From an uncultured Gemmatimonadales bacterium (GTDB lineage Bacteria > Gemmatimonadota > Gemmatimonadetes > Gemmatimonadales > Gemmatimonadaceae), in assembly GCA_963851265.1 (NCBI GenBank), contig CAWKNZ010000008.1:96001-160000 (forward strand): DNA of 64,000 bases, in the 5' to 3' direction. Position numbers and translations under genes: made by a program. Positions 36,874 to 62,392 of the stretch are shown here, one piece after another (within the stretch, counting starts at the first letter, position 1; every line of letters begins with the position of its first letter). The notes under the pieces are model-generated. The model saw nothing but the letters and a program-made list of their open reading frames with translations, made no database searches and was not told the origin of the DNA.

Positions 36874-37221
36874 CTACCACTTCGCGGCGGGGTTGTCGTC
36901 GACCCACTGCGAGTCGCCCTGCCCCGGGATCCACCCCGCGCCGCCCGCGACCGTCTCGAGCGCGGCGTCGTCCAGCTCGCCGTCCGTGCTCGCCGCCGGG
37001 CGCGCCGCCATCGGCAGCACGATCAGCGCGTCGGTATCGGCCCCGCGCTCGACGAACTTGATGCGGAAGCTGGTCGGGATCTCGACCCCGAACGTGTCGC
37101 GGATGGCCGCGTGCGGCGCGGCGAGAAGCCACTGGCGGAACTGCGCGTCGGTGGTGGCCCGGTCGAGCACCTGCTGCAGGCGCGGGTCGCGGGCGGGCTG
37201 GGCGTCGAAGGACTGGCTCAT
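36874..37221 (-). CDS. NHLP-leader RiPP precursor (core AGWIPGQGDSQWVDDNPAAKW)
   Basis: RATTDAQFRQWLL..P...I, KFVE, IVLP, ELDDAALETVAGG cleavage motif. Confidence 0.85.
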   Translation of the reverse strand: MSQSFDAQPARDPRLQQVLDRATTDAQFRQWLLAAPHAAIRDTFGVEIPTSFRIKFVERGADTDALIVLPMAARPAASTDGELDDAALETVAGGAGWIPGQGDSQWVDDNPAAKW

Positions 37222-37335
37222 GGTCGAACCTCTCGGGGACGAGGGGTGGTGGACGCGGCGGCGGTCGCCGCCGCGGGGAACACGGAGCCCGGTGCGGCTC
37301 CCGTGGTAGGCACGGACGGTCAGGTCGTTAGGCGG

Positions 37336-38568
37336 TCAGCCCGGGTGCAGCCCGGCGCGAGCCAGCTCGCGCCGGGCCGCGGCGTGCGCGGCGAGCAGGC
37401 GCCGCGGCGCGTCGACGGTGGTGAGCAGTTCGACGGGCGTGCGCGCGAGCGCGACGAGCACGTCGAGGCCGTCGCGCATCGGGTCGGCGGCGCGCGGGCG
37501 GGCGCGGTCGTACGCCTCGATCGCGCCCGCCGCGCGCGCGGCGGCGCGCGCCAGCACGGCGAACGCCGCGTCGGAGAGCGGCGGGGCACCGCGGTACGTG
37601 TGCAGCCGGCCGTCGGGGCGCACCGCGTCGCCTTCGAGCCCGAAGAAGCGGAGCGCCCACCCGGCGCGGTACGGCGCGCGCGCGCGCCCGTCGCCGGCGG
37701 TCATGCCGAGGTAGTCGGCGATGAGCTCGTCGTGGAGCGCGTTGCGCATCGTGCCGAACAGGCGCTTCGTCGCGTAGTGCGCACATTCGTGCTCCAACCG
37801 GATGCGCAGCGACCGGGACCGCCAGGCCGCGTCGTCGAGCCCGAACGCCGCCGCCGCGACGCCGCTGTACGGGCCGTCGCTCAGCAGGACGAAGCGGTCC
37901 TGGTACCGCTCGCGCTCGGCCACGAGCGCGGCGAACGCCGCGCGCCACCCCGCCTCGTCGTCGGCGCCGCGGGCCGCGGCCCAACGGCGTCGCTCCTCGC
38001 GCACGCGGCCCCAGTTGTTGTAGCCGGCGACCATGCACGCGCCCATCGCGGGCGCGATGACGTCGGGCTCGTTGCGGCGCGTGAGCGACCGGACGAGCCG
38101 TTCGAAGTCGGCGCGGGCGCCGGCGACCACGACGGGGAGCGGGCCGACCACGGTCTGGTGCACGAACAGGTGCACGCGCGCGGAGTCCGCGAACGCGGGC
38201 GCACGGTCGGGCGCGGGCGCGGCGCTTTCGTCACCGCGCCGCGTGGCCGCCAGGTACGCGGCACCCTCGCTCGCCCCCGCGGCGACCGGGAACCGCAGCT
38301 GCACCAGGTGGCGCGTGAGGCACGCGGCCGCGCCAGTCGCGTCTGCCTCGGCCGCGTACCCGGCCCACACCGCGGCCGAGGGTTCCGCGGCCAGCGGTAG
38401 CGCGGGCAGCGGCGCCGTGCCGAGCGGGCTGTTGTTGTAGGCGAGCAGCTCGGCGACGGTCGCGTCGTCGGCGCCGAGCGCCGCGAGGGCCGCGGCGCGC
38501 GCCGGCGTGTCGTCCGGCGCGGGCCTCCGCGCGGACGGGGTCGCGGTGGCCCCGGTGACGATCGGCAC
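37336..38568 (-). CDS. Uncharacterised HExxH protein (DUF7005-like)
   Basis: GYNNW, YQDRFVLLSDGPYS, IRLEHECAHY...RNALHDELIADY. Family assignment is from memory, not a search. Confidence 0.6.
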   Translation of the reverse strand: MPIVTGATATPSARRPAPDDTPARAAALAALGADDATVAELLAYNNSPLGTAPLPALPLAAEPSAAVWAGYAAEADATGAAACLTRHLVQLRFPVAAGASEGAAYLAATRRGDESAAPAPDRAPAFADSARVHLFVHQTVVGPLPVVVAGARADFERLVRSLTRRNEPDVIAPAMGACMVAGYNNWGRVREERRRWAAARGADDEAGWRAAFAALVAERERYQDRFVLLSDGPYSGVAAAAFGLDDAAWRSRSLRIRLEHECAHYATKRLFGTMRNALHDELIADYLGMTAGDGRARAPYRAGWALRFFGLEGDAVRPDGRLHTYRGAPPLSDAAFAVLARAAARAAGAIEAYDRARPRAADPMRDGLDVLVALARTPVELLTTVDAPRRLLAAHAAARRELARAGLHPG

Positions 38569-38569
38569 G

Positions 38570-39811
38570 TCAGTGCGCCACGGCCACGGTGGTCACGCCC
38601 CGGCCGGGGCGCGACGCCGACAGGTACTCGAACTGCCCGTTGCGCACCTGCAGCCGCACGATCGGCTTCTCGACCGGGTCCCCGCTCGCGTCGAAGTGGA
38701 ACGACCCGGTCACGCCGGCGTAGTGCGTCGAATCGCGGAGCGCGCGGGCGACGTCGTTAGGCGCGGCAGAATGGGCGCGTCCCATCGCCGCGGCGAGCAC
38801 GTGCACCGCGTCGTAGCCGCTCGCGCTGAACATGTCGGGCTCCTGGCCGTAGCGCGCGCGGAACGCCGCGCTGAAGCGCTGGACTTCGGGGCGCGGGTCG
38901 TGCGGGTGGAACATCGACGCGACCACCGTCCCCTCGGCGGCGCGGCCGGCGACGCGCACGAGCGCGTCCGCGTGCATCGCGTCGCCGCCGAGGATGGGCG
39001 CGGTGATCCCCTGGCGGCGCGCCTCGGCGACGAGCGCCCCGGCCGCGGGCACCTCGCCCGCGACGAACAGCGCGTCGAGGTCGCGCGCCTTCCACTCCGA
39101 GAGCGTGCGCTCGAAAGCGCGCCCCGAGACCTCGTCGGTCGGGTCGTACGCCTCGCGCACCTCGACCCCCACGCCCAACGCCTGTGCGCGGTCCTCGAAG
39201 GCGTTGGCGAGGCCGCGCCCGTACGAGTTGCGGACGTAGTACACGCCGATGCGACGGTAGCCCCTCTCGGCCGCGTACTCGGCCATCTGCTTGCCCACCG
39301 CGTCCTGCGTGAACGTGCCGCGGAAGACGTGGTCGAGACCCTGCGACGTCAGCGCGGGGTCGGTGCTCACGGGCGCGAAGAGCAGGAGCCCGTTCTGGTC
39401 GTAGATCGGCGCGGCGGGGACGGTCACGTACGACTCGAGGTGGCCGATCACGGCGACCACGTTCGCGCTGTCGGCAAGGCGCTGTGCGACGAGGCGGCCC
39501 TCGTCGACGCTCTCGTGGTCGTCGACGCGGATCACGCGGAGCCGGCGGCCGCCGACGCCGCCGGCGCGGTTGACCTCGTCGACGGCGAGGTCGACGCCCG
39601 GGCCGTAGCGGAAGTCGGGGCGCTCGGCCCACGGCCAGACCGCCGCGACGACCACGTCCCCCCGGCCGCTGGACGCTCCCGCGATGCGACGCTCGGCCGG
39701 CGACTGGCGCTGGCACGCCGCGCCGGCGGCGAGCGCGGCGGCGGTGAAGAGTGCGGTCAGGGCGCGCAGGCGCGGGGCGGCGGCGCGGGCGGGCGTGGCG
39801 GGGTGGCGCAT
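38570..39811 (-). CDS. Periplasmic ligand-binding lipoprotein (LivJ/branched-chain amino acid SBP family)
   Basis: AAC lipobox, LAVDEVNRAGGVGGR, VIGH..S, YGRGLA, GYDAV, GVTGSFHFD. Confidence 0.88.
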   Translation of the reverse strand: MRHPATPARAAAPRLRALTALFTAAALAAGAACQRQSPAERRIAGASSGRGDVVVAAVWPWAERPDFRYGPGVDLAVDEVNRAGGVGGRRLRVIRVDDHESVDEGRLVAQRLADSANVVAVIGHLESYVTVPAAPIYDQNGLLLFAPVSTDPALTSQGLDHVFRGTFTQDAVGKQMAEYAAERGYRRIGVYYVRNSYGRGLANAFEDRAQALGVGVEVREAYDPTDEVSGRAFERTLSEWKARDLDALFVAGEVPAAGALVAEARRQGITAPILGGDAMHADALVRVAGRAAEGTVVASMFHPHDPRPEVQRFSAAFRARYGQEPDMFSASGYDAVHVLAAAMGRAHSAAPNDVARALRDSTHYAGVTGSFHFDASGDPVEKPIVRLQVRNGQFEYLSASRPGRGVTTVAVAH

Positions 39812-39859: not shown

Positions 39860-42800
39860 TTAGGCGATCTGACGTCGGGCGAGCTCGGCGAAGAGGCCGG
39901 GCTGCGCCATGAGCTCGTCGTAGCGCCCCTGCTGGACGACGCGCCCGCGTTCGACGACCACGATCCGGTCGGCGTGTACGATGGTGCTCAGGCGGTGCGC
40001 GACGACGATGCGCGTCGCCTTGAGTCGGTCGAGGCTCTCGGTGACGACCGCCTGGGTCCGGTTGTCGAGCGCGCTCGTCGCCTCGTCGAAGAACATCAGA
40101 CGCGGGCGGTGGACGACGGCGCGGGCGATCATCAGGCGCTGGCGCTGGCCGCCGCTGAGGGTGCCGCCGCCCTCGCTCACCACGGTGTGCATGCCCATCG
40201 GCATCGCCTTCACGTCGGCGTCGAAGCCGGCCATGCGGGCCGCCTCCCACGCGTCGTCGAGCGAGGCGGGGGACGAGCCGGCGATGTTGGTGAAGATGTC
40301 GCCCGACATGAGCTGGCCGTTCTGGAGCACGACACCGATCTGGCGCCGCACCTCCTGCACGTCGAGCTGTTCCAGCTCCTGGCCGTCGTAGAGTACCGTG
40401 CCGGTCTCCGCGCGCTCGAAGCCGAGTAGAAGTCGCAGGATGGTACTTTTCCCCGACCCCGACGGGCCGACGAAGGCGACGAACTCGCCGGGCTCGATGC
40501 GCAGCGACACGTCGCGCAGCACCGGCGCGCCCTCCGGGTTGTAGCGGAAGTACAGGTTGCGCAGCTCGATCGCGCCGGCGAGCGGCCCGGGGTCGCTCTT
40601 GGCCTCGTCCACCTCCGGCGCGGTGGCGAGGATGGGGCGCGCCTGCTCGTACAGCGGGACCGTGGCGAGCGTTTGGAGCAGTGCGGTGCACATGCTCAGC
40701 AGCGCGCCCTGGCAGGCGGCGTACGCCGACAGGAAGGCGAGGAAGTCGCCGGTGGTGAGGCGCGGGCTCGAGGCGTCGCCGGCCTCGTTGGCACTGCCGA
40801 GCAGGCCTAACGCCGCCCAGAAGATCACCATGTTGGCGACCACCGGGAACGCGGACTGGATCGCCGACACGCCGCCCCCGACGCGCTCGGCGCGGAACTG
40901 CAGGCGGCGCTGCTCGCCGAAGCGGGTCGCCCAGCGCGTGAAGGCGCGCGCCTCAGCGCCCGCCACGCGCAGCTTGGTCACGCCCGTCAGCAGCTGCAGC
41001 ACGAGCCCCGACACGCGCGCCTGGACTTCGGCCACGCGGCGGTTCTGGCGCAGCTGCAGCCAGCTGCCGACGCTCGCGATGCCGACCGCGACGGCGATCA
41101 GCAGCGTGGCCCACCACGCCATGCGCGGGCTGTACGAGAACATCAGCGCGAAGTTGACGAGCGAGAACAGCCCGCCGAGGAGCGCCGTGACGGTCACGCC
41201 CGAGACCACCTGGCGGATGCCGTCGATGCCCATCGCGCGCACGGCGAGGTCGCCGGCCGAGTAGGGGCGGAAGAAGGGCATCGGGAGCGCGAGCAGCCGG
41301 TCCCACACCGCCGCCTGGACGGCGGCGCCCATCCGCCCCTCGACGCGCAGCAGGGCGACCGCGCGGGTGACGTTGAAGAGCGCGGTGGCGAGCGCGCAGA
41401 CGAGCAGCACGACGGCCAGTTGGACGAGCTGCGGGCGCTGGGCGCCCGGGATCACGGTGCTGAACAGCGCCCCCGTGGCCATCGGTGGGACCAGGCCGAG
41501 CAGGGCGCCCGCCGCGCCCACCGCGGTCACGAGCGCAAGGTCGCGCCCGCAGCCGCGCAGCCCGAAGCGCGCCACGTCGGTGATCGAGAGGGCCCGCGCC
41601 GGAAACGGTCGGTAGAACGTGTGCGCGAACGGCTCGAGCAGCGCGCCCTCGGCTAGACCGACCGGGTAACCGCGCCCGGTGAACGGGTCGTGCAGGGTGT
41701 AGCCCCGACCCCGTGCGGCCGGGATGAGCGCCACCGGGCGCGGGGTGGGCGCGTCGAGCAGCGGGTGGCGCGCGGGCGCGCTGCCGCCGGCGTCGCCGGC
41801 GCCCTCGGGCGCGGCCGCGGGGGCCGCAACGCGGGCGAGCAGCGGCCCGTGGTCGTGCGCCCACCACGCGTCGCGCAGCACCACCTGCCGGGTGCGCAGG
41901 CGCGAGGCGCGGGCGATCGCGGCGAGCGGGTCGCGGGGCGGCGCGATGCCATCGCCGCGCACGTACGGCCGCACGGTGACGCCGGCTGCCTCGCCCACGC
42001 GCTGGCACACCGCGAGCAGCGCGTCCTCGTAGCCCGCGACAGCGTGTTCGCCGGCGGCCGCGCGCAACGTGACCGCGAGCGTGGTCGCGTCGGCGCTGCC
42101 CACGCGGGGGTCGAGCGTGTCGGCGAGGCGGGCGCAGGCGCCCTGGAGCGCGCGCCGGTCGGCCGCTGCGCGGCGCGCGAGCCGCTCGTGGGCCGCGGCC
42201 GCGCCGCGCCCGACCGCCACCGCCGTGCCGCGCAGCACGAGCGCGTGCAGCCGCGCCACGCCCGCCCAGAGGGCGTCGGGGTCGTTGATCGCGAGCCCCT
42301 CGACGAGGAGGACCTCGCCGGGCTCGCGCGCCTCGAGCCACGCGCGGTGCGACACCGGCGTAAAGCCGACGCCGTTGACGGCCAGCTCGTCGACGCCTAA
42401 CAGGTGCGAGTGCCCCGCGAGGTGCCGCACCCAGGCCACCCCCGCGGTCGGCCGCGCGCTGGTGCCCGCGTCGAAGCGCGCCGGCGCGCCGTCCGGGGTG
42501 CAGCCGATCGCGCGGCAGTCGCGCGGCGCCGCGTGCCGCCCGTGGGCGCCGCCGCTCGCGCGGGCGAGCGCCTCGCCCAGGCCGGCGTAGAGCGCCTCGG
42601 CCCACCCCTCGACCGCGGCGACCACGTCGCGCGCGCCGTCGACGGTCTCGCCGTGTGCGCGTAGGGCGCCGAGCGGCACGCGCCGGAGCAGCGTACCCGA
42701 CGCGCCGACGGCCAGCAGGCCGCGCTCGGCGAGGTCGCGCTCGGCGAGGTCGCGCTCGGCGAGGTCGCGCTCGGCGGCGGCGGATGTGTTCGGCGCGTCG

Positions 42801-43075
42801 GCGTGCGGGTGCGCGTGCGGATGCGCGTGCGCGTCGTCCACGGCGAAGAGCACGGCGCCGGGTCCGGCGCGGAGGAGGTGCGCGCGGGCGCCGACGGGCT
42901 CGTGCGCCCGCAGCTCGACGGCGAACACGTCGACGGTGCCCTCGACCACCTGCCAGGCCTGGCCACCGGCGAGGAGGAACGGGGTGCCCGCGCCGACCGG
43001 CTGCGGCTCCCCGAGCCGGGCGAAGACGTCGAGCGCCGGCGCCAGCGTGTCGGGGATCGTCTCCATCGTGTCCAT
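39860..43075 (-). CDS. NHLP bacteriocin export ABC transporter, permease/ATPase subunit
   Basis: QAAVWDRLLALP..FF, GPSGSGKST, LSGGQRQR, FFDEATSALDN; long N-terminal domain without a peptidase Cys. Confidence 0.92.
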   Translation of the reverse strand: MDTMETIPDTLAPALDVFARLGEPQPVGAGTPFLLAGGQAWQVVEGTVDVFAVELRAHEPVGARAHLLRAGPGAVLFAVDDAHAHPHAHPHADAPNTSAAAERDLAERDLAERDLAERGLLAVGASGTLLRRVPLGALRAHGETVDGARDVVAAVEGWAEALYAGLGEALARASGGAHGRHAAPRDCRAIGCTPDGAPARFDAGTSARPTAGVAWVRHLAGHSHLLGVDELAVNGVGFTPVSHRAWLEAREPGEVLLVEGLAINDPDALWAGVARLHALVLRGTAVAVGRGAAAAHERLARRAAADRRALQGACARLADTLDPRVGSADATTLAVTLRAAAGEHAVAGYEDALLAVCQRVGEAAGVTVRPYVRGDGIAPPRDPLAAIARASRLRTRQVVLRDAWWAHDHGPLLARVAAPAAAPEGAGDAGGSAPARHPLLDAPTPRPVALIPAARGRGYTLHDPFTGRGYPVGLAEGALLEPFAHTFYRPFPARALSITDVARFGLRGCGRDLALVTAVGAAGALLGLVPPMATGALFSTVIPGAQRPQLVQLAVVLLVCALATALFNVTRAVALLRVEGRMGAAVQAAVWDRLLALPMPFFRPYSAGDLAVRAMGIDGIRQVVSGVTVTALLGGLFSLVNFALMFSYSPRMAWWATLLIAVAVGIASVGSWLQLRQNRRVAEVQARVSGLVLQLLTGVTKLRVAGAEARAFTRWATRFGEQRRLQFRAERVGGGVSAIQSAFPVVANMVIFWAALGLLGSANEAGDASSPRLTTGDFLAFLSAYAACQGALLSMCTALLQTLATVPLYEQARPILATAPEVDEAKSDPGPLAGAIELRNLYFRYNPEGAPVLRDVSLRIEPGEFVAFVGPSGSGKSTILRLLLGFERAETGTVLYDGQELEQLDVQEVRRQIGVVLQNGQLMSGDIFTNIAGSSPASLDDAWEAARMAGFDADVKAMPMGMHTVVSEGGGTLSGGQRQRLMIARAVVHRPRLMFFDEATSALDNRTQAVVTESLDRLKATRIVVAHRLSTIVHADRIVVVERGRVVQQGRYDELMAQPGLFAELARRQIA
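42721..42775 (-). repeat. 15-bp in-frame tandem repeat (AERDL) in the ABC transporter gene
   Basis: About 3.6 copies of cgcgctcggcgaggt. Confidence 0.8.
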
Positions 43076-53499: not shown

Positions 53500-53650
53500 T
53501 CATCTTCTGTATCACCCAATCGATCACGTCACCGCCGGCAACGGACTCGAGTTCGTCGTCGTTGAGCACCCCATCGGCGTCCTCACGTGCCGGGGCGGTC
53601 GCGGTATCAGGGGTAGGGGGGGTGCTCGGGGTCTGCTCGGAATCCGCCAT
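53474..53650 (-). CDS. Short double-glycine precursor (core DVIDWVIQKMNDWYDAQK)
   Basis: LNDDELESVAGG; GGAGG RBS before ATG 53650. Confidence 0.8.
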   Translation of the reverse strand: MADSEQTPSTPPTPDTATAPAREDADGVLNDDELESVAGGDVIDWVIQKMNDWYDAQK

Positions 53651-55322: not shown

Positions 55323-58300
55323 TTAGGCCCACAGGAGCACATTCGGGACGACGTCCGGCGCCGCCAGCCGCAGCAACTGGTAGCCGATCCCGGCGCTCCC
55401 CTGTGCAAGTCCTACCGCGATCGCCCCCCATCCGGTGTTGTACGCGCCGTCGACGCTGGCGCGCGCCATCACGTGGTCGGCGGCACCGCGGGCCTCGGCG
55501 ACGAGTTCGGGGCGGCGGAGGTGCCGCCCCGCACTCAGCAGAAGCTCGGTACGCCCCATGACGCCGCAGCACAGCGTGTCCGGGCCGGCGAGGAGCCGGT
55601 CCCGCGTGCGGCGCACGGCGGCATGCACCTCGGGTGAGACGTCCGGCCACGCGTCGGCTGCATCGGTCGCGGGACGGGTCACGGCCAGCCGGGCCAGACC
55701 GATGCCGCCCGCGCCGCGAGCCCACGCGGCCCGCGCGTCGTCGTCCCCCGAGAGCCCGCAGAGTTCTGGGCCCAGCACGGTGCGCTCGTACGCGAAGGCG
55801 TCCGCCGACGCCGACGCGAAGCGGGCCTCGCCGGTCGCTGTGGCCAGGCGGTGCAGCGCGTACGCGATCCCCGCATGCCCGTGCGCCATGCCAGTCTCGG
55901 GCTGGCCGCGCGGGCCGGGCCAGTACCCCGCCGCCGTCGCGCCGGCGCCTTCCCGCCGCCGCAGCAGGTGGTCGCCCAGCGCCACGGCGCGCTCCAGCGC
56001 CGCGCCGCCCGGCGCGTCGGCGAGCGCGAGCAGGCCGAGGATCGCGCCAGCCGACCCGGCCATCAGGTCACCACTGTCCCGTTCCTCGACGCACGCGACG
56101 TCGATCAGCGCGGCAACATCGGCGGCGGCGTGCATTGTCGCGGTGTCGTTAACGAGGGTACCCAGGCGGGCGAGGGCGTACGCCGTGGAGCCGAGGCCGG
56201 TGCCGGCGCCTACGTCCGTCCAGCGCCGCACGCGCACGGAGCGTCGCAGGTCGGGGAGGTGGGCGTGGAGCGGACGCAGTGACGCGAGCGCCTGGTCCGC
56301 GAACCGCCCGTCGCCTGTGACCCTGGCCAGCACCGCCAGGAAGAGGGCGAAGCCCACGTATCCGTCGAGCAGGTTCGCTGGCGCCGCGCCGAGCACGTAG
56401 CGTCGCGACGCCGCGTGGTACATGGGCGCGACCCACGCCCCCACCGCACACCGCCGCGCGCGCGACCGGGCGATCACGCGCTCCGCGATGGCGACGCCTG
56501 CGGCGAGCGCGCGGTCCGTGAAACCGTCGCCGGCCGCGGCGGCCGTGTCCGAGGGAATCGGCACCCCGGCGACCTTCGCGCGGCGGGCCCGCCGCTCCGC
56601 CGGCGGAGCGGCGGGCCCGCGCACGTCGTCCACGTCGACGGCCGCGAACGAGGCGCGGATGAGCTCGACCTGCGCCTCCTCGTCCTCGGGGCTGAGCGCG
56701 CGCATGCGCCGTACGGCCATGTCGAATGCCGAGGTCCGGAAGCACCCCTCGATCACGTCTCCGGTCGGAAGCACCAAGGCGGTGCTGTCCGCGTCGGCCG
56801 TGAACAGGGGAATGTCGAGCCGCTCGAGTGCTTCTTGCTCGGCGCGCAGGACGGGCCAGATCGTCGGCCGATCGGCGCGCGTCAGGAACGTGCGGCACAG
56901 CACGTCCAGCTCCACGCCGCGGCGCACGCCGTCGCGCAACAGGTTGGGGTGGTTGCAGCGCTCGAGCAGCGCCGCGTACAGGCTGGTGTTGCGCAGGATG
57001 AAGCGGACGCGCTGCCGCCGCATGCACGCGATCGGGCCACCCGGCGCCAACACCTCGTCGCGGCCGGCGAGGAGGGCGGCGTAGGTCCGCCGGAACCCCA
57101 CGACGAGCGCCTCCACGTGCTCACGCGCGGTAACCGCGCGGCCGTTCACCATCGGGAGGTTCGCGGGGTGCCGTTGGGCCGGCGCGCGCACTCGAACGGG
57201 CCGCATGGCCGCCGTATTCGCGGCAACCCACGTGCTGACCACCGAGTCGTCGGTGGGCTGCGCGCCCGCGCGAAACGCGCCCACCTCAACCGCCCCCCCC
57301 GAGTCGTCGACCTTGAGTTGTGGCAGCATGTGCAAGGCGAGCACGGAATCGAACAGGAAACGGCGGGCGGTTCCGTCGGCCATCGCCTGGTCGGGCGGCT
57401 CGTCGGTCGGCGCGAAGTCAGGGCTGAGCAGCGTCTCCAGATCGATGAGCACCGGCTGGTCGCCGGCAGCGATCAAGTTTTCGAAGTGGAAGTCCGATCC
57501 GTTGAGCGCGTACGCGATGCACAACAGCGCCCCGCACCGCTCGTAGAACCGGGCGACGTCGCCCTCGCGCGCGCACGGGGCGTGGGCGGCGAACTCCAGC
57601 CACCCGTGTGTCGGGCGCGCCACCACGCGCAACGGCGCCAGCGACAGCGCGGGCGCGCGGGCGTTGAGCCACCGCGCGAGGTCGCCGAAGCACTCCTCCA
57701 GCCCGACCGGGCGCGGCTTGTAGACCACCCGGTGGCCGCCGGCAAAGTGTAGGATCATCACGCCGCGGCCGCCCTCGTGCGGATCGGAGAGCGAGCACGA
57801 GAGGTCGACGACGGGGCCGAGCGGCTTCCCACCCGCCAGCACGTCGCGGATGCGCTCCGCGTCGTCGGCGAGGCGCGCGATCAGCTCCGCTGCGGCTTCA
57901 ACCCACAGGTCGACGATCGTCGCACACAGCCGAGCGGCCACGGGATACTCGACGAAGAACGCCCGCATGCCGCCGGCGCGCATGCCCGCGACGAAATCCG
58001 CGTACGCGTCGCCCGCCGTCGGCCCCATGCCCAGTGCCGCGTGCCGGCAGACCCGGTCGACCGAGAACGACACGAACAGCGCGCGCGCGCACGTCTGGCT
58101 GAGCCGCTGGAGGGCGGCTCCTTCCAGCGCGGCGTGCGCCTGCGGGGTCAGGAGGTCGTGCGCCGGCCCGACTCGCGCCCGTACGCGCTCGCGAGCGACC
58201 CGCATGAGCGGCGCGAATACGTCGCCGAACGCCACGGCAGCCGCGCCGCCGGCGGACGGCACCTCGACCGCTTCGGCGGCGGGCGCCGCTTGTAGCCGCG

Positions 58301-58610
58301 GCCCGTACGCGGCTGTGAGTGTGGCCGACCACCCGAGGTCGGCCGGCGTCGGGTCGGTGTCCCCCAGCATCCGCGCGACCACCGCGGGATCGAGCCCGTC
58401 CCACGTGAGGCGCCGATGAAGGCTGGGCCAGTCACCGCGGCTGAGGGTGGCGCACCACCCCTGCAGCTCGGGCGGTTGGACGCCCGCGTCGTGGCCCGCG
58501 TCGTGGCCCGCGCTACGCCGCCGCACACCATCGAGCCGAGACTGAAGTGTGGCGGCGCGCGTGAGCGAGAGCAGGACGGCGCCGTCGCGGGCGGTGTGAG
58601 CAAGCGTCAT
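55323..58610 (-). CDS. lanM: Class II lanthipeptide synthetase LanM (copy 2, cyclase motif WC changed to WA)
   Basis: SDPHEGG, VVYKPR, DFHFENL, IDLETL, DIPLF; cyclase GMAHG, WARG, LCCG. Confidence 0.92.
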   Translation of the reverse strand: MTLAHTARDGAVLLSLTRAATLQSRLDGVRRRSAGHDAGHDAGVQPPELQGWCATLSRGDWPSLHRRLTWDGLDPAVVARMLGDTDPTPADLGWSATLTAAYGPRLQAAPAAEAVEVPSAGGAAAVAFGDVFAPLMRVARERVRARVGPAHDLLTPQAHAALEGAALQRLSQTCARALFVSFSVDRVCRHAALGMGPTAGDAYADFVAGMRAGGMRAFFVEYPVAARLCATIVDLWVEAAAELIARLADDAERIRDVLAGGKPLGPVVDLSCSLSDPHEGGRGVMILHFAGGHRVVYKPRPVGLEECFGDLARWLNARAPALSLAPLRVVARPTHGWLEFAAHAPCAREGDVARFYERCGALLCIAYALNGSDFHFENLIAAGDQPVLIDLETLLSPDFAPTDEPPDQAMADGTARRFLFDSVLALHMLPQLKVDDSGGAVEVGAFRAGAQPTDDSVVSTWVAANTAAMRPVRVRAPAQRHPANLPMVNGRAVTAREHVEALVVGFRRTYAALLAGRDEVLAPGGPIACMRRQRVRFILRNTSLYAALLERCNHPNLLRDGVRRGVELDVLCRTFLTRADRPTIWPVLRAEQEALERLDIPLFTADADSTALVLPTGDVIEGCFRTSAFDMAVRRMRALSPEDEEAQVELIRASFAAVDVDDVRGPAAPPAERRARRAKVAGVPIPSDTAAAAGDGFTDRALAAGVAIAERVIARSRARRCAVGAWVAPMYHAASRRYVLGAAPANLLDGYVGFALFLAVLARVTGDGRFADQALASLRPLHAHLPDLRRSVRVRRWTDVGAGTGLGSTAYALARLGTLVNDTATMHAAADVAALIDVACVEERDSGDLMAGSAGAILGLLALADAPGGAALERAVALGDHLLRRREGAGATAAGYWPGPRGQPETGMAHGHAGIAYALHRLATATGEARFASASADAFAYERTVLGPELCGLSGDDDARAAWARGAGGIGLARLAVTRPATDAADAWPDVSPEVHAAVRRTRDRLLAGPDTLCCGVMGRTELLLSAGRHLRRPELVAEARGAADHVMARASVDGAYNTGWGAIAVGLAQGSAGIGYQLLRLAAPDVVPNVLLWA

Positions 58611-58745: not shown

Positions 58746-59126
58746 TCAGTGCGTGGCCAGGTAGACGTCGGCGCCGGCGAGCGCGCCGGCAAGCGCCCAG
58801 AGGGCGATGGCAGCTAGCGGCGGCGACCCGCCGGCGACGGCTTCCAACTCCTCGGCCGACAGCTCGACGTTCGGGTCGACGAAGTCCGGCAGCACGAGCG
58901 TCGCGTCGCCCTGGTTCTCGACGAACTTCACGTTCCACGTGGCGTGCAGCTCCTCGGCTGGGCGGCCGACGAACTCGGCGAGCGCGGCGCGCGGGTCGGC
59001 GATGAGCTTGGTGCGGAAGCCGCGGTCCGTGGCCGACCGGGAGAGCATCGACCGGATGGCATCTTCGGCCTGTTTGGCGAAGGCAGGATTCGTGGCGAAC
59101 AGTTCGGCAGTCTGGCGCGTGTCCAT
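58746..59126 (-). CDS. NHLP-leader precursor (core SPPLAAIALWALAGALAGADVYLATH)
   Basis: SRSATDRGFRTKLIADP, KFVEN..DATLVLP, ELSAEELEAVAGG. Confidence 0.9.
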   Translation of the reverse strand: MDTRQTAELFATNPAFAKQAEDAIRSMLSRSATDRGFRTKLIADPRAALAEFVGRPAEELHATWNVKFVENQGDATLVLPDFVDPNVELSAEELEAVAGGSPPLAAIALWALAGALAGADVYLATH

Positions 59127-59164: not shown

Positions 59165-59533
59165 CTACTTGGTGGCGGCCTGCGCCGCCCATGCGCCGAC
59201 GGCCATGCTACCGACGAAGATCATGAGCCCGATGGCGATCGGATCCGAGCCGCCGGAGACCGCCTCGAGCTCCGACTCCTGCAGCTCGGCGTCGGGGTCG
59301 ACGAACGGGGGAAGCACGAGGGTGGCGTCGGCCGTGTTCTCGACGAAGCGCACGTCCAGGCGCTCGGGGAACGCGGCGCCGAGCGCCTCGTGGAGGGCCG
59401 CACGGGGCTCGTCGAGGAGCTTGCGGCGGAAGTCGGCGTCGGTGGCGGAGCGCGTCAGCACGGAGCGGATTTGGGCGATCCCCTGCTCCGCGAGCTCGGG
59501 GTGCTGCTGGGCGATGGCGACGGTCGTGTTCAT
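59165..59533 (-). CDS. NHLP-leader precursor (core SDPIAIGLMIFVGSMAVGAWAAQAATK)
   Basis: TRSATDADFRRKLLDEP, RFVENTADATLVLP, ELQESELEAVSGG. Confidence 0.9.
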   Translation of the reverse strand: MNTTVAIAQQHPELAEQGIAQIRSVLTRSATDADFRRKLLDEPRAALHEALGAAFPERLDVRFVENTADATLVLPPFVDPDAELQESELEAVSGGSDPIAIGLMIFVGSMAVGAWAAQAATK

Positions 59534-59633
59534 GAGAGTGGGTGGCGGTGGGTCAGGGTGGTGGGACGCGCGGGCTGGCGTCGGCGGACGTTAGGCGTTC
59601 GGGGGCGCCCCGCGGCGGGGGCACCGGCCGCCG

Positions 59634-60001
59634 CTACTTCATGTCCGAGATCATCTTGATCGCGGAGATGACCCCGAGGATGCTCGCGACGATCGAGCCG
59701 ATGCACGGGTCCGTTCCGCCGGCGATGGCCTCGAGCTCCGACTCTTGGAGCTCGGCCTCGGGATCGATGTAGTCCGGGAGCACGATCGTGGCGTCCGCCG
59801 TGTTCTCGACGAAGCGCAGGTCGAGGTCGCCGATGTCGCCGCCGGTCGCCTCCTGGAGCGTCTCGCGGGGCTGCGCGATCAGGCGCTGGCGGAACGCGTG
59901 GTCGGTGGCCGACCGGCTGAGCACGGTCCGGATCCTGTCGTGGTACTCGCGGACCTCCTCGGGCGGTCGGCGGCGATGCGCTCGATCGTTTCGACGTTCA
60001 T
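59634..60001 (-). CDS. NHLP-leader precursor (core TDPCIGSIVASILGVISAIKMISDMK); 1-nt frameshift near 59962
   Basis: AGGAG RBS + ATG 60001 MNVETIERIAADRP, then after a shift in a C-run EEVREYHDRIRTVLSRSATD...ELQESELEAIAGG. Confidence 0.85.
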
Positions 60002-60081
60002 GGTGCGGCTCCTGTTGGGAGAAGGGTGATGGTAACGACATGCAACAAAATCGGGGTGCTGTCCGATCGGTCCTCTCGGAG

Positions 60082-60355: not shown

Positions 60356-60526
60356 ATGACAACAAACCAGCAGTACGGCGTCACGTACTTTGCCGTCGGC
60401 ACGGCGATGATCGCCTTCTACGGATTCACCTGGTACCGCCGACAGCCCCTCACGTTGATGCTCGTCATGGGGATCCTCTGCTTGGGGATGGGCGTGCTGC
60501 GCTACTTCGCCCGCGCACGCCCGTAA
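60356..60526 (+). CDS. Small membrane protein with two TM helices
   Basis: MTTNQQYGVTYFAVGTAMIAFYGFTWYRRQPLTLMLVMGILCLGMGVLRYFARARP. Confidence 0.6.
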   Translation: MTTNQQYGVTYFAVGTAMIAFYGFTWYRRQPLTLMLVMGILCLGMGVLRYFARARP

Positions 60527-60665
60527 TGCGGAGCCGTTAGACGCGCGCCCGTTCGGGGAGGAACGGGCGTGGCGCCGCGACGACGGCCGCCCGCGCGAGC
60601 AGGCCAGGGTGTGACCGGGAAGCACGGTAAGGCGCGCGCGACGTCCGCGGGCGTCCGCGGCGGCG

Positions 60666-60710
60666 GTGTACGAGCGCTTCCGGCGCTGGTCGCGGGCGGG
60701 CGTGTGCCGG
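60666..60710 (+). pseudogene. Possible short IS5-family transposase scar
   Basis: VYERFRRWSRAGVC resembles the IS5-family TVYxRFRRWxxxGVW motif. Confidence 0.3.
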
Positions 60711-61093
60711 GTCGTACGCTGGGGGGAGGCCGCCCGGCCGCATGCCGGCGCGCGACCGCGCCTCGTACCGCCGGTGCAACGTCGTCGGGCGCCTCGCGGC
60801 GCGGCGCACCGAGCGCCGCCCGCTGGTAGGCGCTGCGCGAAGCTCGTGCGACGCGACCTCGCCGTCGGGAAGCCCGCGAGGCTCGCGTGGCACCTCGCGC
60901 TCATCCGACCCGACATACCGCGCCCCGCTGCGCCAGCGTGGGGCGCCGCGGGGGTGAGTCAGTTACTTGCTGAACTGCGCGATCGCGGCCCGCGCGTCCT
61001 GCACGAACAGCTGGCGGAAATCAACCGCACGCCGATTTCCGCTTCGGTAGTACTCACGCGATTCGCGGTGAGGTGCCCCGTACTGGGCACACG

Positions 61094-62392
61094 TCACCGC
61101 TCGGTCGACGGCGCGCCCACCCGCGCACTGGCCGCGCCCGGTTTGAGGTCGTGGTGCCGCAGAAAGTCCATAAACTTCAAATAGTCCCCTTCCGCGATCG
61201 CAAACAGCCCGAGCACCCGCTTGTAACTCCCCCGCGTCGCCACGAGCCCCCGCTCCACCACCAGCCGCACCTCGGCGCGACTCAGCTCGCGCTCCATGTA
61301 CGGCCCGTGCACCAGCTCCCAGAACGTCCCCTCCCCCGCCAGCATCCGCGCGTACGGGTCCGCCCCCGCGGCACCGACGGCCCGCGTGCCGCCCGGCGGC
61401 GTCATCACCGGCACCCCCCGCAGCTCCTCGCTGCACGCCGCCCCCTCCAGCGCCTCGCCGAAGTCCCGGGCCTCGATGGTCGCCCCCTCGCACACGTAGT
61501 AACCCGTGTCGACGAGGCTCCGGAGCTCGCGCACGTTCCCGGGCCACGCGTACCGGCCTAACACCACGAGCGCGTGCGCCGAGAACCGCTTGCGCGACCC
61601 CTCCGCCTTCACCACCCGCTCCAGGTAGTGCTCCAGCACCAGCCGCCAGTCGTCGCCGCGCTCCCGGAGCGACGGCACGCGCACGTGCAGGTGCCGCAGC
61701 CGGTAGTAGAGGTCCGCGCGGAACCTCCCGCTCTCGACCATCGGCCGCAGGTCGCGGCTCGTCGCGGCGACCACCCGCACGTTGATCCGCTTGCTCTGCG
61801 TCGTCCCCACCGACAGGATCTCGCCCTCGCCCAACACGCGCAGCAGCATCGCCTGCGCCGTGACCGAGAGCTCGCCGACCTCGTCGAGGAACACCACCCC
61901 ACCGTCGGCCTCCTCGAACACGCCGCGGTGGTCACCGACGGCGCCCGTGAACGAGCCCTTGCGGTGCCCGAACAGCTCGCTCGCCAGCAGCTGGCCGTCG
62001 TGGTACTGCGCGCAGTTCACGGCGAGGAACGGCTTGCGGCTGCGGCGACTCAGCAGGTAGACCGCCCGGGCGAACAGCTCCTTGCCCGTGCCCGTCTCGC
62101 CCGTCACCAGCACCGGCCCGTCCGCCTCCGCGAAGCGCGCCGCGCGCTCCAGCGCCTGCGTGAGCGTCTCGTGCGACCCCACCACCGACACCTCGCGCGC
62201 CTCACCCCACCGTTCGCGCGACAGCTCGGCGATGCGCCGGCTGACGAACGACGCGGCGGGGGCGTCGGCCGCGCCGCGATCCGCCAACGTGTGCCCCAGT
62301 GCTCCACCGGCCGCCGGACTGTACGCGGCTCCTCCGGCCGTCCCGCCGAGCCCGCGCCGCGTGACGACCGACTGCTCCACCGCACTCATCAT
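61094..62392 (-). CDS. sigma54-dependent enhancer-binding protein with no N-terminal receiver or sensor domain
   Basis: GETGTGKE, SELFGHRKGSFTGA, FLDEVGEL, RFRADLYYRL, WPGNVREL. Confidence 0.93.
   Translation of the reverse strand: MMSAVEQSVVTRRGLGGTAGGAAYSPAAGGALGHTLADRGAADAPAASFVSRRIAELSRERWGEAREVSVVGSHETLTQALERAARFAEADGPVLVTGETGTGKELFARAVYLLSRRSRKPFLAVNCAQYHDGQLLASELFGHRKGSFTGAVGDHRGVFEEADGGVVFLDEVGELSVTAQAMLLRVLGEGEILSVGTTQSKRINVRVVAATSRDLRPMVESGRFRADLYYRLRHLHVRVPSLRERGDDWRLVLEHYLERVVKAEGSRKRFSAHALVVLGRYAWPGNVRELRSLVDTGYYVCEGATIEARDFGEALEGAACSEELRGVPVMTPPGGTRAVGAAGADPYARMLAGEGTFWELVHGPYMERELSRAEVRLVVERGLVATRGSYKRVLGLFAIAEGDYLKFMDFLRHHDLKPGAASARVGAPSTER

What the first reader, a model, noticed from the sequence alone, without database searches (positions are those of the whole stretch)
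36874..62392. Large combinatorial RiPP locus: 8 precursors of two leader classes, two LanM enzymes, a LanJ-like reductase and one NHLP exporter
Seen: four long nitrile-hydratase-like-leader precursors (36874, 58746, 59165, 59634) and four short acidic-leader precursors (48594, 49156, 50141, 53474). All end in L-x4-L-E-x-V/I-x-G-G, and their cores are unrelated. They share one C39-peptidase ABC/HlyD/TolC exporter. Only 2 of the 8 cores contain Cys, so most cannot form lanthionines. Inference: this is not a classical lantibiotic cluster but a peptide library of mostly linear, dehydrated or D-amino-acid-containing products, in a lineage (probably Gemmatimonadota) where RiPPs are little studied.
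Basis: partly seen in the sequence, partly recalled or inferred. Interest (0 to 1): 0.9.

Follow-up and report, generated by a model that had tools for sequence, protein, structure and literature searches.

The report
Two-enzyme dehydrated-peptide gene cluster, mostly ringless
A soil bacterium carries a large gene cluster for eight secreted peptides, most of which cannot form the sulfur rings typical of lantibiotics, and one of its two modifying enzymes belongs to a little-known branch that has lost its ring-forming metal site.

Summary
Eight minus-strand ORFs (36874-60041) all end their leaders in L-x4-L-E-x-V/I-x-G-G. That motif occurs 10 times in the six-frame translation of the whole genome, 8 of them here. 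Four carry NHLP leaders. Only 2 of 8 cores contain Cys, and one (S4) has no Ser, Thr or Cys at all.

There are two LanM enzymes and a complete NHLP exporter. The exporter has two ABC subunits, not one, plus HlyD and TolC.

New points:
- LanM2 lacks the first zinc-ligand Cys. It sits in a clade of 39 LanMs, none with a complete zinc site.
- LanM1 is an intact ProcM-like CCG enzyme.
- In relatives, NHLP precursors sit directly upstream of the zinc-less LanM and short-leader precursors sit beside the intact one.
- The reductase is a true LanJA (LtnJ) relative, but here it needs at least 3 frame changes, so D-amino acids are unlikely in this strain.
- A sigma-54 activator, a lipoprotein binding protein and DUF7005 (invariant HExxH) travel with the cluster.

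The closest known system is the published npn cluster of Nostoc punctiforme, which this scan has already met on other DNA. I rate this a new variant of a known kind, resting on computation only.

The parts
62998..63999 (-). LytTR-type response regulator. Its start lies at or just beyond the window edge. Its LytS-type histidine kinase lies outside the window at G000:C8:159912-162383.
   Evidence: Response_reg and LytTR domains. The kinase carries PF06580 and HATPase_c. An 82% identical orthologue lies beside the related cluster of G004.
61094..62677 (-). Sigma-54 enhancer-binding activator that travels with the cluster. The true start is uncertain because the N-terminal ~150 aa are low-complexity.
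   Evidence: Sigma54_activat, E 2.6e-61. A full-length 73% orthologue occurs only in G004 among 4 genomes of the genus; the others have only paralogues at 46% or less. Homologues lie beside the LanM in L057 (53%) and L038 (46%).
60356..60526 (+). Small 56-aa ORF with two hydrophobic stretches, divergent from A4. A candidate small membrane protein; lead only.
   Evidence: ORF. GC3 0.88. Weak DUF202 hit, E 0.023.
59634..60041 (-). Precursor A4. NHLP leader and a 26-aa hydrophobic core beginning with Thr, with one Cys. Start codon uncertain.
   Evidence: TIGR03793, E 2e-11, 43.6 bits, below the cut-off. Core. Candidate starts.
59165..59533 (-). Precursor A3. NHLP leader and a 27-aa hydrophobic Cys-free core beginning with Ser.
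   Evidence: TIGR03793 55.5 bits, above the cut-off. TIGR03949 (class IIb bacteriocin) 22.3 bits against a cut-off of 21.5.
58746..59126 (-). Precursor A2. NHLP leader and a 26-aa hydrophobic Cys-free core beginning with Ser.
   Evidence: TIGR03793, E 2.6e-10, below the cut-off. TIGR03949 28.4 bits against 21.5. AGAGGG upstream of the start.
55323..58610 (-). LanM2 (1095 aa). Conserved DUF4135 dehydratase domain plus a LanC-like domain whose first zinc-ligand Cys is Ala (W-A-R-G). It keeps the Cys-Cys pair (CCG) and the catalytic His.
   Evidence: TIGR03897 703.5 bits. Alignment to LicM2 6st5. Zinc-site columns. Clade of 39 with 0 intact zinc sites.
54136..55285 (-). LanJA-type (zinc/NADPH MDR) dehydroalanine reductase gene, broken. 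It needs at least three frame changes, near 54680-54666, about 54590-54500 and about 54429-54400.
   Evidence: ADH_N domain. 43% identity to the intact G004 orthologue, spread over three reading frames. One TAG inside the match. The orthologue matches the LtnJ position of pMRC01.
53474..53650 (-). Precursor S4. Short acidic GG leader and an 18-aa core with no Ser, Thr or Cys. It overlaps the LanM1 start by 26 nt.
50506..53499 (-). LanM1 (997 aa). Complete ProcM-like zinc site: W-C-R-G plus a Cys-Cys pair in a CCG motif, and the catalytic His.
   Evidence: TIGR03897 493.9 bits. Zinc-site columns. All-intact clade of 21 that includes the second LanM of L059.
50141..50335 (-). Precursor S3. Short leader and a 22-aa Pro/Gly-rich core beginning with Cys. 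It is the only short-leader core able to form a ring.
   Evidence: Similar Cys-first cores follow the intact LanM in L059.
49156..49350 (-). Precursor S2. Short leader and a 36-aa Pro/Ile-rich Cys-free core.
   Evidence: The only core with a related-locus match at E 0.003 (L011). That one hit is not above the shuffled background.
48594..48794 (-). Precursor S1. Pro/Ala-rich leader and a 17-aa Cys-free core. The least certain of the eight, with no clear ribosome site.
   Evidence: GC3 0.90.
46664..48559 (-). TolC-like outer-membrane channel.
   Evidence: OEP domain. TIGR01844, E 6.7e-19, below the cut-off. Start chosen at a GTG preceded by AGGAG and followed by a signal-like peptide.
45405..46667 (-). 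NHLP-system HlyD-type adaptor.
   Evidence: TIGR03794 355.1 bits against a cut-off of 156.2.
43078..45408 (-). ABC1: C39 peptidase, permease and ATPase. The predicted double-glycine leader peptidase and exporter.
   Evidence: TIGR03796 1082.8 bits against 853.3. Peptidase_C39, E 1.9e-34.
39860..43075 (-). ABC2: permease/ATPase subunit without a peptidase, with a long conserved N-terminal extension.
   Evidence: TIGR03797 912.3 bits against 709.4. Start at an ATG just after the ABC1 stop. The N-terminal region aligns in G004, L045 and L057.
38570..39811 (-). Periplasmic binding protein of the Leu/Ile/Val type with a lipoprotein-like signal. Role unknown.
   Evidence: Peripla_BP_6, E 9.9e-51. 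N-terminus. Conserved next to ABC2 in G004 (56%) and L057 (50%).
37336..38568 (-). DUF7005 protein with an invariant HExxH. A candidate cytoplasmic zinc peptidase, inferred from the motif only.
   Evidence: PF22541, E 1.2e-108. E259, H260, E261 and H264 invariant in 9 of 9 sequences. Homologues in 9 of the 81 related loci searched. No significant fold match.
36874..37221 (-). Precursor A1. NHLP leader and a 21-aa Gly/Asp/Trp-rich core ending in Trp, with one Ser and no Cys. It lies downstream of the exporter, far from both LanMs.
   Evidence: TIGR03793 52.9 bits, above the cut-off. Sequence. NHLP precursors with similar-looking W-terminal cores in G004 and L038.

Best explanation
This is a two-module RiPP locus of about 27 kb, all on one strand and built on class II lanthipeptide chemistry.

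Module I:
- It comprises the three NHLP-leader precursors A4, A3 and A2, then LanM2, then a LanJA-type reductase gene.
- LanM2 phosphorylates Ser/Thr in the hydrophobic, helix-like cores and eliminates the phosphate, giving dehydroalanine or dehydrobutyrine.
- It does not cyclise them. Its LanC-like domain has lost a zinc ligand, and most of these cores have no Cys.
- In relatives, the reductase would then turn dehydroalanine into D-Ala.
- In this strain the reductase is a pseudogene, so the dehydro residues should persist.
- All three cores begin with Ser or Thr. Leader removal would therefore expose an N-terminal dehydro residue, which is expected to hydrolyse to a 2-oxoacyl cap.

Module II:
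- It comprises S4, LanM1 with its intact ProcM-like CCG zinc site, and S3, S2 and S1.
- LanM1 serves the short non-NHLP leaders.
- Only S3 can gain a thioether, S1 and S2 can only be dehydrated, and S4 cannot be modified by a LanM.

Export and regulation:
- All eight share the same 12-residue leader end. The C39 domain of ABC1 cleaves after GG, and ABC1/ABC2-HlyD-TolC exports the products.
- A cluster-specific sigma-54 activator and a LytS/LytTR pair regulate the locus.
- The binding lipoprotein, DUF7005 (HExxH) and A1 form a conserved accessory group of unknown role.

Shown and inferred:
- Shown by computation: gene content, motifs, zinc-site state, phylogeny and synteny.
- Inferred: every chemical step, the pairing of each enzyme with a leader class, and the biological activity.
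For: Gene content:
- Family hits are above the curated cut-offs for both LanMs and the three exporter genes.
- All eight leaders share an invariant end.

LanM2 zinc site:
- LanM2 has W-A-R-G where LicM2 has W-C-H-G.
- In a 199-sequence tree, LanM2 lies in a clade of 39 (support 0.89). None of the 39 has the Cys-Cys-Cys/His site, against 144 of 199 overall.
- The dehydratase motifs stay invariant across 27 clade members: D276, H278, K298, N378, D390 and E392.

LanM1:
- LanM1 lies in an all-intact clade (21 of 21) together with the second LanM of the Longimicrobium locus L059. That locus also carries a zinc-less LanM, so the pair recurs.

Pairing of enzyme and leader class:
- In all 10 related loci with sequence upstream of a zinc-less LanM of this kind, the ORFs directly upstream hit the NHLP model. 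These are L011, L012, L038, L057, L059, L069, L098, L112, L113 and L158.
- In one search, 18 of 39 candidate precursors hit NHLP with E 5.5e-10 or better.
- All 7 candidate precursors in L050 and beside the intact LanM of L059 gave no NHLP hit.

Reductase:
- A homologue follows the zinc-less LanM in the window, L011, L038, L057, L094, L095 and L103. It does not in L059, L069, L096 or L098.
- Across all loci it was found in 9 of 80 genome loci and 5 of 80 metagenome loci. In 11 of those 14 the LanM has an incomplete zinc site or no LanC-like part was matched.
- Its G004 orthologue matches the MDR gene right after the second LanM-like gene of the lacticin 3147 plasmid pMRC01 (32% identity, 91% coverage, E 1e-30). 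It also matches Staphylococcus aureus plasmids of about 36-60 kb. The rodencin paper names LtnJA and SacJA as LanJA enzymes (passages).

Cores:
- 12 of the 18 NHLP cores in those loci, and 3 of the 4 here, lack Cys. This is my tally.
- Cores A2 and A3 pass the class IIb bacteriocin model.
Against: - No experiment, transcript or product is available. No sequencing run could be listed.
- LanM2 keeps two of the three zinc ligands and the catalytic His, and A4 has one Cys. Residual cyclase activity is therefore not excluded.
- 6 of the 18 NHLP cores in related zinc-less loci do contain Cys (up to three in L113).
- The reductase is absent from 4 of the 11 zinc-less loci that have enough flank, so the coupling is not obligatory.
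- L096 shows short-leader Cys-free precursors beside a zinc-less LanM, so the pairing of leader class with enzyme is not strict.
- L011 and L095 carry near-identical precursors and are probably not independent.
- A 99% identical fragment from another assembly (P0002) goes out of frame after LanM2 residue 650. This points either to decay of the locus in close kin or to indel errors in such assemblies. The second case would weaken the pseudogene call.
- The TIGR03949 hits include the GG leader end, so they say little about the cores alone.
- The motif scan for precursors is crude and includes chance matches.
Confidence: 0.6

Rival explanations
1. Shared-exporter reading. Most of the Cys-free peptides (A1, A2, A3, S1, S2, S4) are unmodified double-glycine peptides, either class II-like bacteriocins or signalling peptides. 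They only use the C39 exporter, and the LanMs act on A4 and S3 alone.
For: - A2 and A3 pass the class IIb lactobin A/cerein 7B model (28.4 and 22.3 bits against 21.5).
- S4 has no Ser, Thr or Cys, and A1 has one Ser and lies 13 kb from the nearest LanM.
- A LytS/LytTR pair sits at the head of the locus. This recalls the peptide-pheromone circuits of class II bacteriocin loci, which is my recollection only.
- One L050 precursor weakly hits the BlpC pheromone model (E 5.9e-4, far below the cut-off).
Against: - The zinc-less LanM clade keeps its dehydratase motifs invariant.
- That clade is found next to NHLP precursors in every locus with upstream sequence. Most of those precursors lack Cys, so they are its likeliest substrates.
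- A LanJA reductase makes sense only if dehydroalanine is made.
- 9 of the 10 hydrophobic NHLP cores next to the LanM in the Gemmatimonadota loci begin with Ser or Thr (window, L011, L059, L069; my reading).
Confidence: 0.2
2. Decaying locus. The cluster is being lost in this lineage and makes no mature product.
For: - The reductase gene needs at least 3 frame changes.
- A 99% identical LanM2 fragment from another assembly goes out of frame.
- Only 1 of 4 other genomes of the genus has any LanM.
Against: - About 21 kb of the other cluster genes are open and full length with coding-type GC3.
- All eight leader ends are intact.
- At the reductase's density of frame breaks, roughly 50 would be expected in those 21 kb, and none is seen.
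Confidence: 0.1
3. Dehydrazole-like pathway. LanM2 behaves like the zinc-independent LanMbC enzyme CcaM and dehydrates only cores first heterocyclised by the YcaO/SagB pair just beyond the window.
For: - A ThiF-YcaO fusion (TIGR03604, 219.7 bits against 219.25) and a SagB dehydrogenase (TIGR03605, 161.8 bits) lie 3-6 kb past the window end, about 7 kb upstream of A4.
- The dehydrazole paper describes DUF4135 enzymes with zinc-free cyclase domains, YcaO partners and NH-like leaders (abstract and passages).
Against: - That YcaO has its own Cys-rich precursor directly upstream (L091:4586-4921, repeated C-x-V-C).
- No homologue lies beside any LanM2-clade locus. There are only 2 weak hits among the 81 loci, and both are in unrelated loci.
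- The same YcaO/SagB pair occurs in G003 with different flanks.
- The cores here are not rich in Ser, Thr or Cys.
Confidence: 0.05
4. Classical lanthipeptide cluster in which all the products are ring-containing lantibiotics.
For: Two LanMs well above the family cut-off, and a complete exporter.
Against: 6 of 8 cores have no Cys. LanM2 lacks a zinc ligand.
Confidence: 0.03

Closest known systems
[quoted passage not shown] That paper is not held here. I saw a passage in the 2026 nostolanthin preprint, review passages and a note of this scan.
   Same: A LanM-type dehydratase plus a zinc/NADPH LanJA reductase acts on leader-bearing precursors that lack Cys, giving linear dehydro or D-Ala peptides. 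The natural products have never been detected.
   Different: - The dehydratase here keeps a LanC-like domain with a damaged zinc site.
- A second, intact CCG LanM with its own short-leader precursors is present.
- The reductase is broken.
- The host has an outer membrane, and the locus carries TolC, a binding lipoprotein, DUF7005 and a sigma-54 activator.
- I could not test whether NpnM belongs to the LanM2 clade, because no sequence was in hand.
Prochlorosin-type systems (ProcM with NHLP/Nif11 leaders) and the three-gene NHLM exporter (Haft, Basu and Mitchell 2010, seen as a citation). The ProcM CCG zinc site is recalled.
   Same: - LanM1 has the Cys-Cys-Cys site in a CCG motif.
- Leaders are conserved and cores diverse.
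- TIGR03794, TIGR03796 and TIGR03797 are all present above their cut-offs.
   Different: Prochlorosin cores carry Cys and become ringed. Here 6 of 8 cannot, and there are two enzymes with different leader classes rather than one promiscuous enzyme.
Lacticin 3147 locus of pMRC01 (two LanMs, LtnT, LtnJ).
   Same: Two LanMs, a C39 ABC exporter and a LanJA gene directly after the second LanM-like gene. The G004 orthologue of the window's reductase is 32% identical to it over 91% of its length.
   Different: Lacticin peptides are ringed two-component lantibiotics of a Gram-positive host, with short leaders and an intact reductase.
Dehydrazole LanMbC enzymes (CcaM; PMC10676384, abstract and passages read).
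   Same: A DUF4135 dehydratase is fused to a cyclase-like domain without a working zinc site. Products keep dehydro residues and have no rings. The cyclase-like domain is still needed for activity there, which would explain why it is conserved here.
   Different: CcaM needs azoles made by a YcaO partner and ignores the leader. LanM2-clade loci have no YcaO partner, and LanM2 still keeps two Cys ligands and a strong LANC_like match (126.7 bits).
Class IIb two-peptide bacteriocins of the lactobin A/cerein 7B family (TIGR03949).
   Same: Double-glycine leader end and small hydrophobic Gly-rich helical cores. A2 and A3 pass the model.
   Different: Those peptides are unmodified, have short leaders and come from Gram-positive bacteria. 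These carry roughly 95-110-aa NHLP leaders and sit beside a dehydratase.

Membership tests
Class II lanthipeptide synthetase LanM (TIGR03897) | N-terminal DUF4135 dehydratase domain with its kinase-like motifs | tested here: met
   DUF4135 E 1.5e-112 (LanM2) and 4.3e-90 (LanM1). Both are above the TIGR03897 cut-off. Motif residues are invariant in 27 clade members.
Class II lanthipeptide synthetase LanM (TIGR03897) | C-terminal LanC-like cyclase domain with three zinc ligands (Cys, Cys, His or Cys) | tested here: not met
   - LanM2: the domain is present (126.7 bits), but the first ligand is Ala (W-A-R-G against W-C-H-G of LicM2). None of the 39 members of its clade is complete.
- LanM1 meets the feature (W-C-R-G plus CCG).
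Lanthipeptide precursor | Core with Ser/Thr and at least one Cys | tested here: not met
   Met by A4 and S3 only. 6 of 8 cores have no Cys, and S4 has no Ser or Thr either.
NHLP leader peptide family (TIGR03793) | Nitrile-hydratase-alpha-like leader ending in a double-glycine site | tested here: met
   A1 (52.9) and A3 (55.5) are above the 50.9 cut-off. A2 (40.0) and A4 (43.6) are below it, with E 2.6e-10 or better. All end in GG. The four short precursors gave no hit.
NHLM bacteriocin export system | C39 peptidase ABC subunit, second ABC subunit and HlyD adaptor encoded together | tested here: met
   TIGR03796 1082.8 against 853.3, TIGR03797 912.3 against 709.4, TIGR03794 355.1 against 156.2. 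The genes are adjacent with overlaps or gaps of a few bases.
LanJA dehydroalanine reductase | Zinc-type MDR fold, homologous to a characterised LanJA | tested here: met
   ADH_N domain in the window copy. 43% identity to the G004 orthologue. That orthologue matches the gene at the LtnJ position of pMRC01 at E 1e-30.
LanJA dehydroalanine reductase | Intact open reading frame | tested here: not met
   The homology runs through three reading frames with at least 3 switches, and one TAG lies inside the match. Raw reads to confirm this were not available.
npn-type LanM/LanJA system | Dehydratase, LanJA and Cys-free leader-bearing precursors in one locus | tested here: met
   All three are present, with the reductase broken. 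Whether LanM2 is orthologous to NpnM could not be tested.
Dehydrazole (LanMbC plus YcaO) system | A YcaO/dehydrogenase pair serving the same precursors, and cores rich in Ser/Thr/Cys | tested here: not met
   - The nearby YcaO/SagB pair has its own Cys-rich precursor.
- It is not syntenic with LanM2-clade enzymes elsewhere.
- A2 and A3 have 2-3 Ser/Thr in 26-27 residues.
Class IIb bacteriocin, lactobin A/cerein 7B (TIGR03949) | HMM score above the cut-off | tested here: met
   A2 28.4 and A3 22.3 against 21.5. The matched stretch includes the GG leader end, so this is weak evidence about the mature peptide.
Zincin-type metallopeptidase (for DUF7005) | HExxH motif and a zincin fold | tested here: inconclusive
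   - HExxH is invariant in 9 of 9 sequences.
- The model has pLDDT 77.
- Foldseek gave no match with E 0.001 or better.
- In VIA-align the best Z was 6.2 to an unrelated partial match. Thermolysin gave Z 4.6 over 184 residues, which is within the noise.

The most novel reading that the evidence does not exclude
The LanM2 clade is a distinct family of cyclase-dead LanM dehydratases that I could not find described in print. It has 39 sequences here, from Gemmatimonadota, Rhodothermales, Bacteroidota and soil metagenomes.
- It is dedicated to NHLP-led, membrane-helix-like, mostly Cys-free cores.
- Together with a LanJA reductase it makes linear peptides carrying dehydro residues or D-Ala and a modified N-terminus.
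- It is habitually paired with a second, intact CCG LanM that serves short-leader Pro-rich peptides.
- The whole system is exported through one NHLP transporter under sigma-54 control.

Standard lanthipeptide mining would miss these precursors, because the RODEO procedure discards ORFs without Cys in the core (passage).
Probability: 0.4. Interest if true: 0.65.

Novelty: new variant of a known kind. Interest (0 to 1): 0.55.

Why it matters
- If LanM2-type enzymes really are dedicated dehydratases for long-leader hydrophobic peptides, they define a widespread route to linear dehydro or D-amino-acid peptides in soil phyla with an outer membrane. No product of that route has yet been seen.
- Current mining rules exclude such precursors by design, because they require Cys.
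- The locus also offers a clean natural test of leader-class specificity. Two LanMs and two leader classes share one cleavage motif and one exporter.
- The enzymes could serve as tools for installing dehydroalanine or D-Ala without rings.
- For this particular strain the broken reductase lowers the value. The intact versions in G004, L011, L038 and L057 are better starting points.

Tried and rejected
- **Close relatives by single protein.** A scan of genome contigs with LanM2 found no relative among 187 pattern matches. The best database homologues are 47% identical or less, apart from one 99% fragment. No near-identical characterised cluster was found.
- **Orthologues of the cores.** I suspected that each core has orthologues in related loci. 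A short-query BLAST of the 8 cores against 151 candidate cores gave 1 hit at E below 0.05. Shuffled versions gave 13 hits in 160 queries, so the similarity is at the level of type only.
- **Sigma-54 promoter scan.** TGGCAC-N5-TTGC with up to 2 mismatches gave 32 matches against 51 expected, so there is no evidence. Two minus-strand sites upstream of A4 (60083-60097) and S1 (48876-48890) keep GG-N10-GC and remain leads only.
- **DUF7005.** No PDB sequence match, no Foldseek match at E 0.001 or better, and VIA-align Z of 6.2 or less. The protein atlas returned only DUF7005 clusters.
- **Sequencing runs.** No run and no RNA holder was listed. Neither expression nor the frameshifts could be checked, and read laying was not used.
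- **Link to the neighbouring YcaO/SagB genes.** Rejected.
- **Papers not held.** PMC4599312 (NpnJ), PMC4851115 (bicereucin) and PMC5408752. What I say about them is recalled or second-hand.
- **Literature searches.**
  - 'Gemmatimonadota' + 'lanthipeptide' + 'LanM' returned 0 papers.
  - The searches turned up no description of a zinc-ligand-less LanM clade paired with LanJA outside the YcaO-linked LanMbC enzymes.
  - The library lacks most subscription journals, so this is not proof of absence.
- Two references contained stop codons and were corrected and resent.

Full report
**Setting**

The window is G000:C8:96001-160000, from a 4.6 Mb genome in 12 contigs with 74% GC. In such DNA long spurious ORFs abound, so I picked genes by codon-position GC and by family searches.

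Everything in the finding lies on the minus strand between 36874 and about 64000. The left part of the window holds unrelated genes: a type VI secretion set, an ECF sigma factor, kinases, a PQQ dehydrogenase and two BNR/sortilin-like proteins.

**Observation**

The eight precursor ORFs are real features.
- All end their leaders in L-x4-L-E-x-V/I-x-G-G. Five columns are invariant across all eight.
- A slightly looser form of the motif, followed by at most 60 residues to a stop, occurs 10 times in the six-frame translation of the whole genome. Eight of those are here.
- All eight have coding-type composition, with GC3 0.75-0.98.
- The four long ones hit the NHLP leader model. Two score above the curated cut-off and two below it, with E 2.6e-10 or better. 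The four short ones hit nothing.
- Only A4 and S3 contain Cys. S4 has no Ser, Thr or Cys, and A1 has a single Ser.

Both LanM genes are far above the family cut-off, and they are the only LanMs in the genome.

The exporter is the full NHLM set. It has a C39 peptidase ABC protein, a second ABC protein without a peptidase, a HlyD adaptor and a TolC-like channel. These genes overlap by 4 nt or are separated by 2 nt.

**The two LanMs differ**

Aligned to LicM2 (PDB 6st5), LanM2 has W-A-R-G where the first zinc-ligand Cys should be. It keeps the second-site Cys-Cys pair (CCG motif) and the catalytic His. LanM1 has W-C-R-G and CCG, the three-Cys site that I recall from ProcM.

The zinc-site state follows the phylogeny.
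- Among 120 aligned sequences (the two window LanMs, the G004 LanM and 117 database homologues of 900 aa or more), the first-ligand column reads C 85, S 21, A 7, G 4, V 1 and gap 2.
- In a FastTree of 199 LanMs, 144 have an intact site.
- LanM2 falls in a clade of 39 (support 0.89) in which none is intact.
- That clade contains sequences named Longimicrobium, Gemmatimonadaceae/Gemmatimonadales, Rhodothermales and Bacteroidota, plus soil metagenome proteins.
- Its dehydratase motifs are invariant. The enzymes are therefore under selection as dehydratases, and the LanC-like domain is conserved without its metal site.
- LanM1 falls in an all-intact clade (21 of 21) next to the second LanM of Longimicrobium locus L059. 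That locus also has a zinc-less LanM, so the pair recurs.

**Modules**

I compared 80 genome loci, 80 metagenome loci and a same-genus locus, G004.
- In all 10 related loci that have sequence upstream of a zinc-less LanM of this kind, the ORFs directly upstream hit the NHLP model. 18 of the 39 candidate precursors tested hit it at E 5.5e-10 or better.
- All 7 candidates in L050 and beside the intact LanM of L059 gave no NHLP hit.
- The window has the same layout: A4-A3-A2 then LanM2, and S4, LanM1, then S3-S2-S1.
- 12 of those 18 NHLP cores lack Cys. In the window 3 of 4 do.
- By my tally, 59 of 73 motif-bearing candidates contain Cys in loci whose LanMs all have intact sites. The figure is 14 of 28 in the six genome loci of the LanM2 clade, and 2 of 8 here. 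The scan is crude, and the loci are related to one another.
- The hydrophobic NHLP cores next to the LanM in the Gemmatimonadota loci begin with Ser or Thr in 9 of 10 cases (my reading). If that residue is dehydrated, leader removal should leave a 2-oxoacyl cap. This rests on established lantibiotic chemistry, which I recall.

**Reductase**

Between LanM2 and S4 lies an MDR/ADH_N gene.
- It is 43% identical to an intact orthologue in G004. The homology, however, runs through three reading frames with at least three switches, and one TAG lies inside the match.
- The genome has no close intact paralogue.
- About 21 kb of neighbouring cluster genes show no frame break, so a uniform sequencing-error rate is an unlikely cause. 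Reads were not available to settle the matter.
- A 99% identical LanM2 fragment from another assembly is itself out of frame, which keeps some doubt alive.
- The family is LanJA. The G004 orthologue matches the MDR gene that directly follows the second LanM-like gene on the lacticin 3147 plasmid pMRC01 (32% identity, 91% coverage, E 1e-30). It also matches Staphylococcus aureus plasmids of about 36-60 kb.
- The rodencin paper lists LtnJA, SacJA and NpnJA as zinc/NADPH LanJA enzymes (passages).
- A homologue follows the zinc-less LanM in 7 of the 11 such loci that have enough flank. L011 and L095 among them are probably the same population.
- Over all loci it occurs in 14 of 160. In 11 of those 14 the LanM has an incomplete zinc site or no LanC-like part was matched.

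**Accessory genes**
- A full-length orthologue of the sigma-54 activator (73%) exists only in G004 among four genomes of the genus. Homologues sit beside the LanM in L057 and L038.
- The binding lipoprotein is conserved next to ABC2 in G004 and L057.
- DUF7005 is conserved in G004, L057, six cyanobacterial loci and one acidobacterial locus. It has an invariant HExxH, but no fold match supports a peptidase assignment.

**Outside the window**

Beyond the right edge lie the LytS-type kinase and then a separate thiazole/oxazole cluster. That cluster has its own Cys-rich precursor, a ThiF-YcaO fusion and a SagB dehydrogenase. It is not linked to LanM2-type loci elsewhere, and it occurs with different flanks in G003. 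I therefore reject a dehydrazole-type reading (paper passages).

**Comparison with what is known**
- Cys-free LanM substrates with a LanJA are known from the npn cluster of Nostoc punctiforme. I saw the statement that NpnA3 and NpnA6 fully lack cysteine in the 2026 nostolanthin preprint.
- This scan has already met the npn cluster on other DNA (e1-2695260). It has also met a sigma-54-controlled mixed-leader LanM locus in a Verrucomicrobium (e1-3942756).
- Zinc-independent cyclase domains fused to DUF4135 are known from the dehydrazoles.
- The variant features here are: a coherent zinc-less clade without a YcaO partner, its pairing with an intact CCG LanM and a second leader class, the broken reductase, and the conserved regulator, lipoprotein and DUF7005 set.
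- The large RODEO survey discards ORFs without Cys in the core, which helps explain why such loci are little described.
- No paper held here combines Gemmatimonadota, lanthipeptide and LanM.

**Verdict**

This is a new variant of a known kind. All mechanism is inferred from sequence.

Noticed in passing
Outside the window: L091:4586-8205 (G000:C8:162586-166205, + strand): A separate thiazole/oxazole (TOMM) cluster, divergent from the histidine kinase. It has a 111-aa precursor with many C-x-V-C repeats, a ThiF-YcaO fusion (TIGR03604 at its cut-off, TIGR03882) and a SagB dehydrogenase. An 80% identical copy in G003 lies in a different context and has one in-frame TGA.
   Followed up: yes
L009/L010/L003 (G004:C6:7200-47199): The same-genus genome G004 has a related but differently equipped cluster.
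- A Nif11 precursor with YcaO and TfuA (thioamide-type).
- An intact LanJA-type gene.
- A LanM whose LanC-like part scores below the Pfam cut-off.
- An FAD_binding_4 oxidoreductase.
- An NHLP precursor with a Cys-free core ending in W.
- The same exporter, lipoprotein, DUF7005, sigma-54 activator and LytTR regulator, plus a CAAX protease.
   Followed up: partly
window 37336-38568 (-): DUF7005 carries an HExxH motif that is invariant in 9 of 9 homologues. It recurs in NHLP/Nif11 LanM loci of cyanobacteria, Bacteroidota, Acidobacteriota and Gemmatimonadota. It may be an uncharacterised leader-processing or leader-degrading metallopeptidase. No fold match supports this.
   Followed up: partly
L037, L040, L052 (cyanobacterial loci): LanM relatives of only 670-708 aa, with no LanC-like part matched, sit next to a LanJA-type gene (39-41% identical to the G004 reductase). 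They look like stand-alone dehydratase plus reductase pairs.
   Followed up: no
L016, L022, L039 (Nostoc and Cylindrospermum loci): Pairs of LanMs in which the catalytic His and/or zinc ligands are replaced (QCCC+DSSC, ECSC+HSDC, QSCW+HSDC). They sit next to 7-10 candidate precursors, almost all Cys-free and Lys-rich.
   Followed up: no
window 60356-60526 (+): A small 56-aa ORF with two hydrophobic stretches and GC3 0.88, divergent from the first precursor. Possibly an immunity-type membrane protein.
   Followed up: partly
window 36874-37221; G004 (L009:16247-16606); L038:1492-1791: Three NHLP precursors from three genomes have short Gly/Asp/aromatic-rich, Cys-free cores that all end in Trp. 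The similarity is of type only and was not shown to be significant.
   Followed up: partly
P0002 (protein from another assembly): An 813-aa protein is 99% identical to LanM2 residues 285-650 and then goes out of frame. This indicates either decay of the gene in a near-identical strain or an indel error in that assembly.
   Followed up: partly
window 931-13360 (+): A type VI secretion gene set (TssA/ImpA, TssF, TssG, a ClpV-like ATPase, VgrG). It is unrelated to the finding.
   Followed up: no
window 22219-25647 and 26946-30374 (-): Two paralogous 1142-aa BNR/sortilin-Vps10-like proteins flank an amidohydrolase.
   Followed up: no
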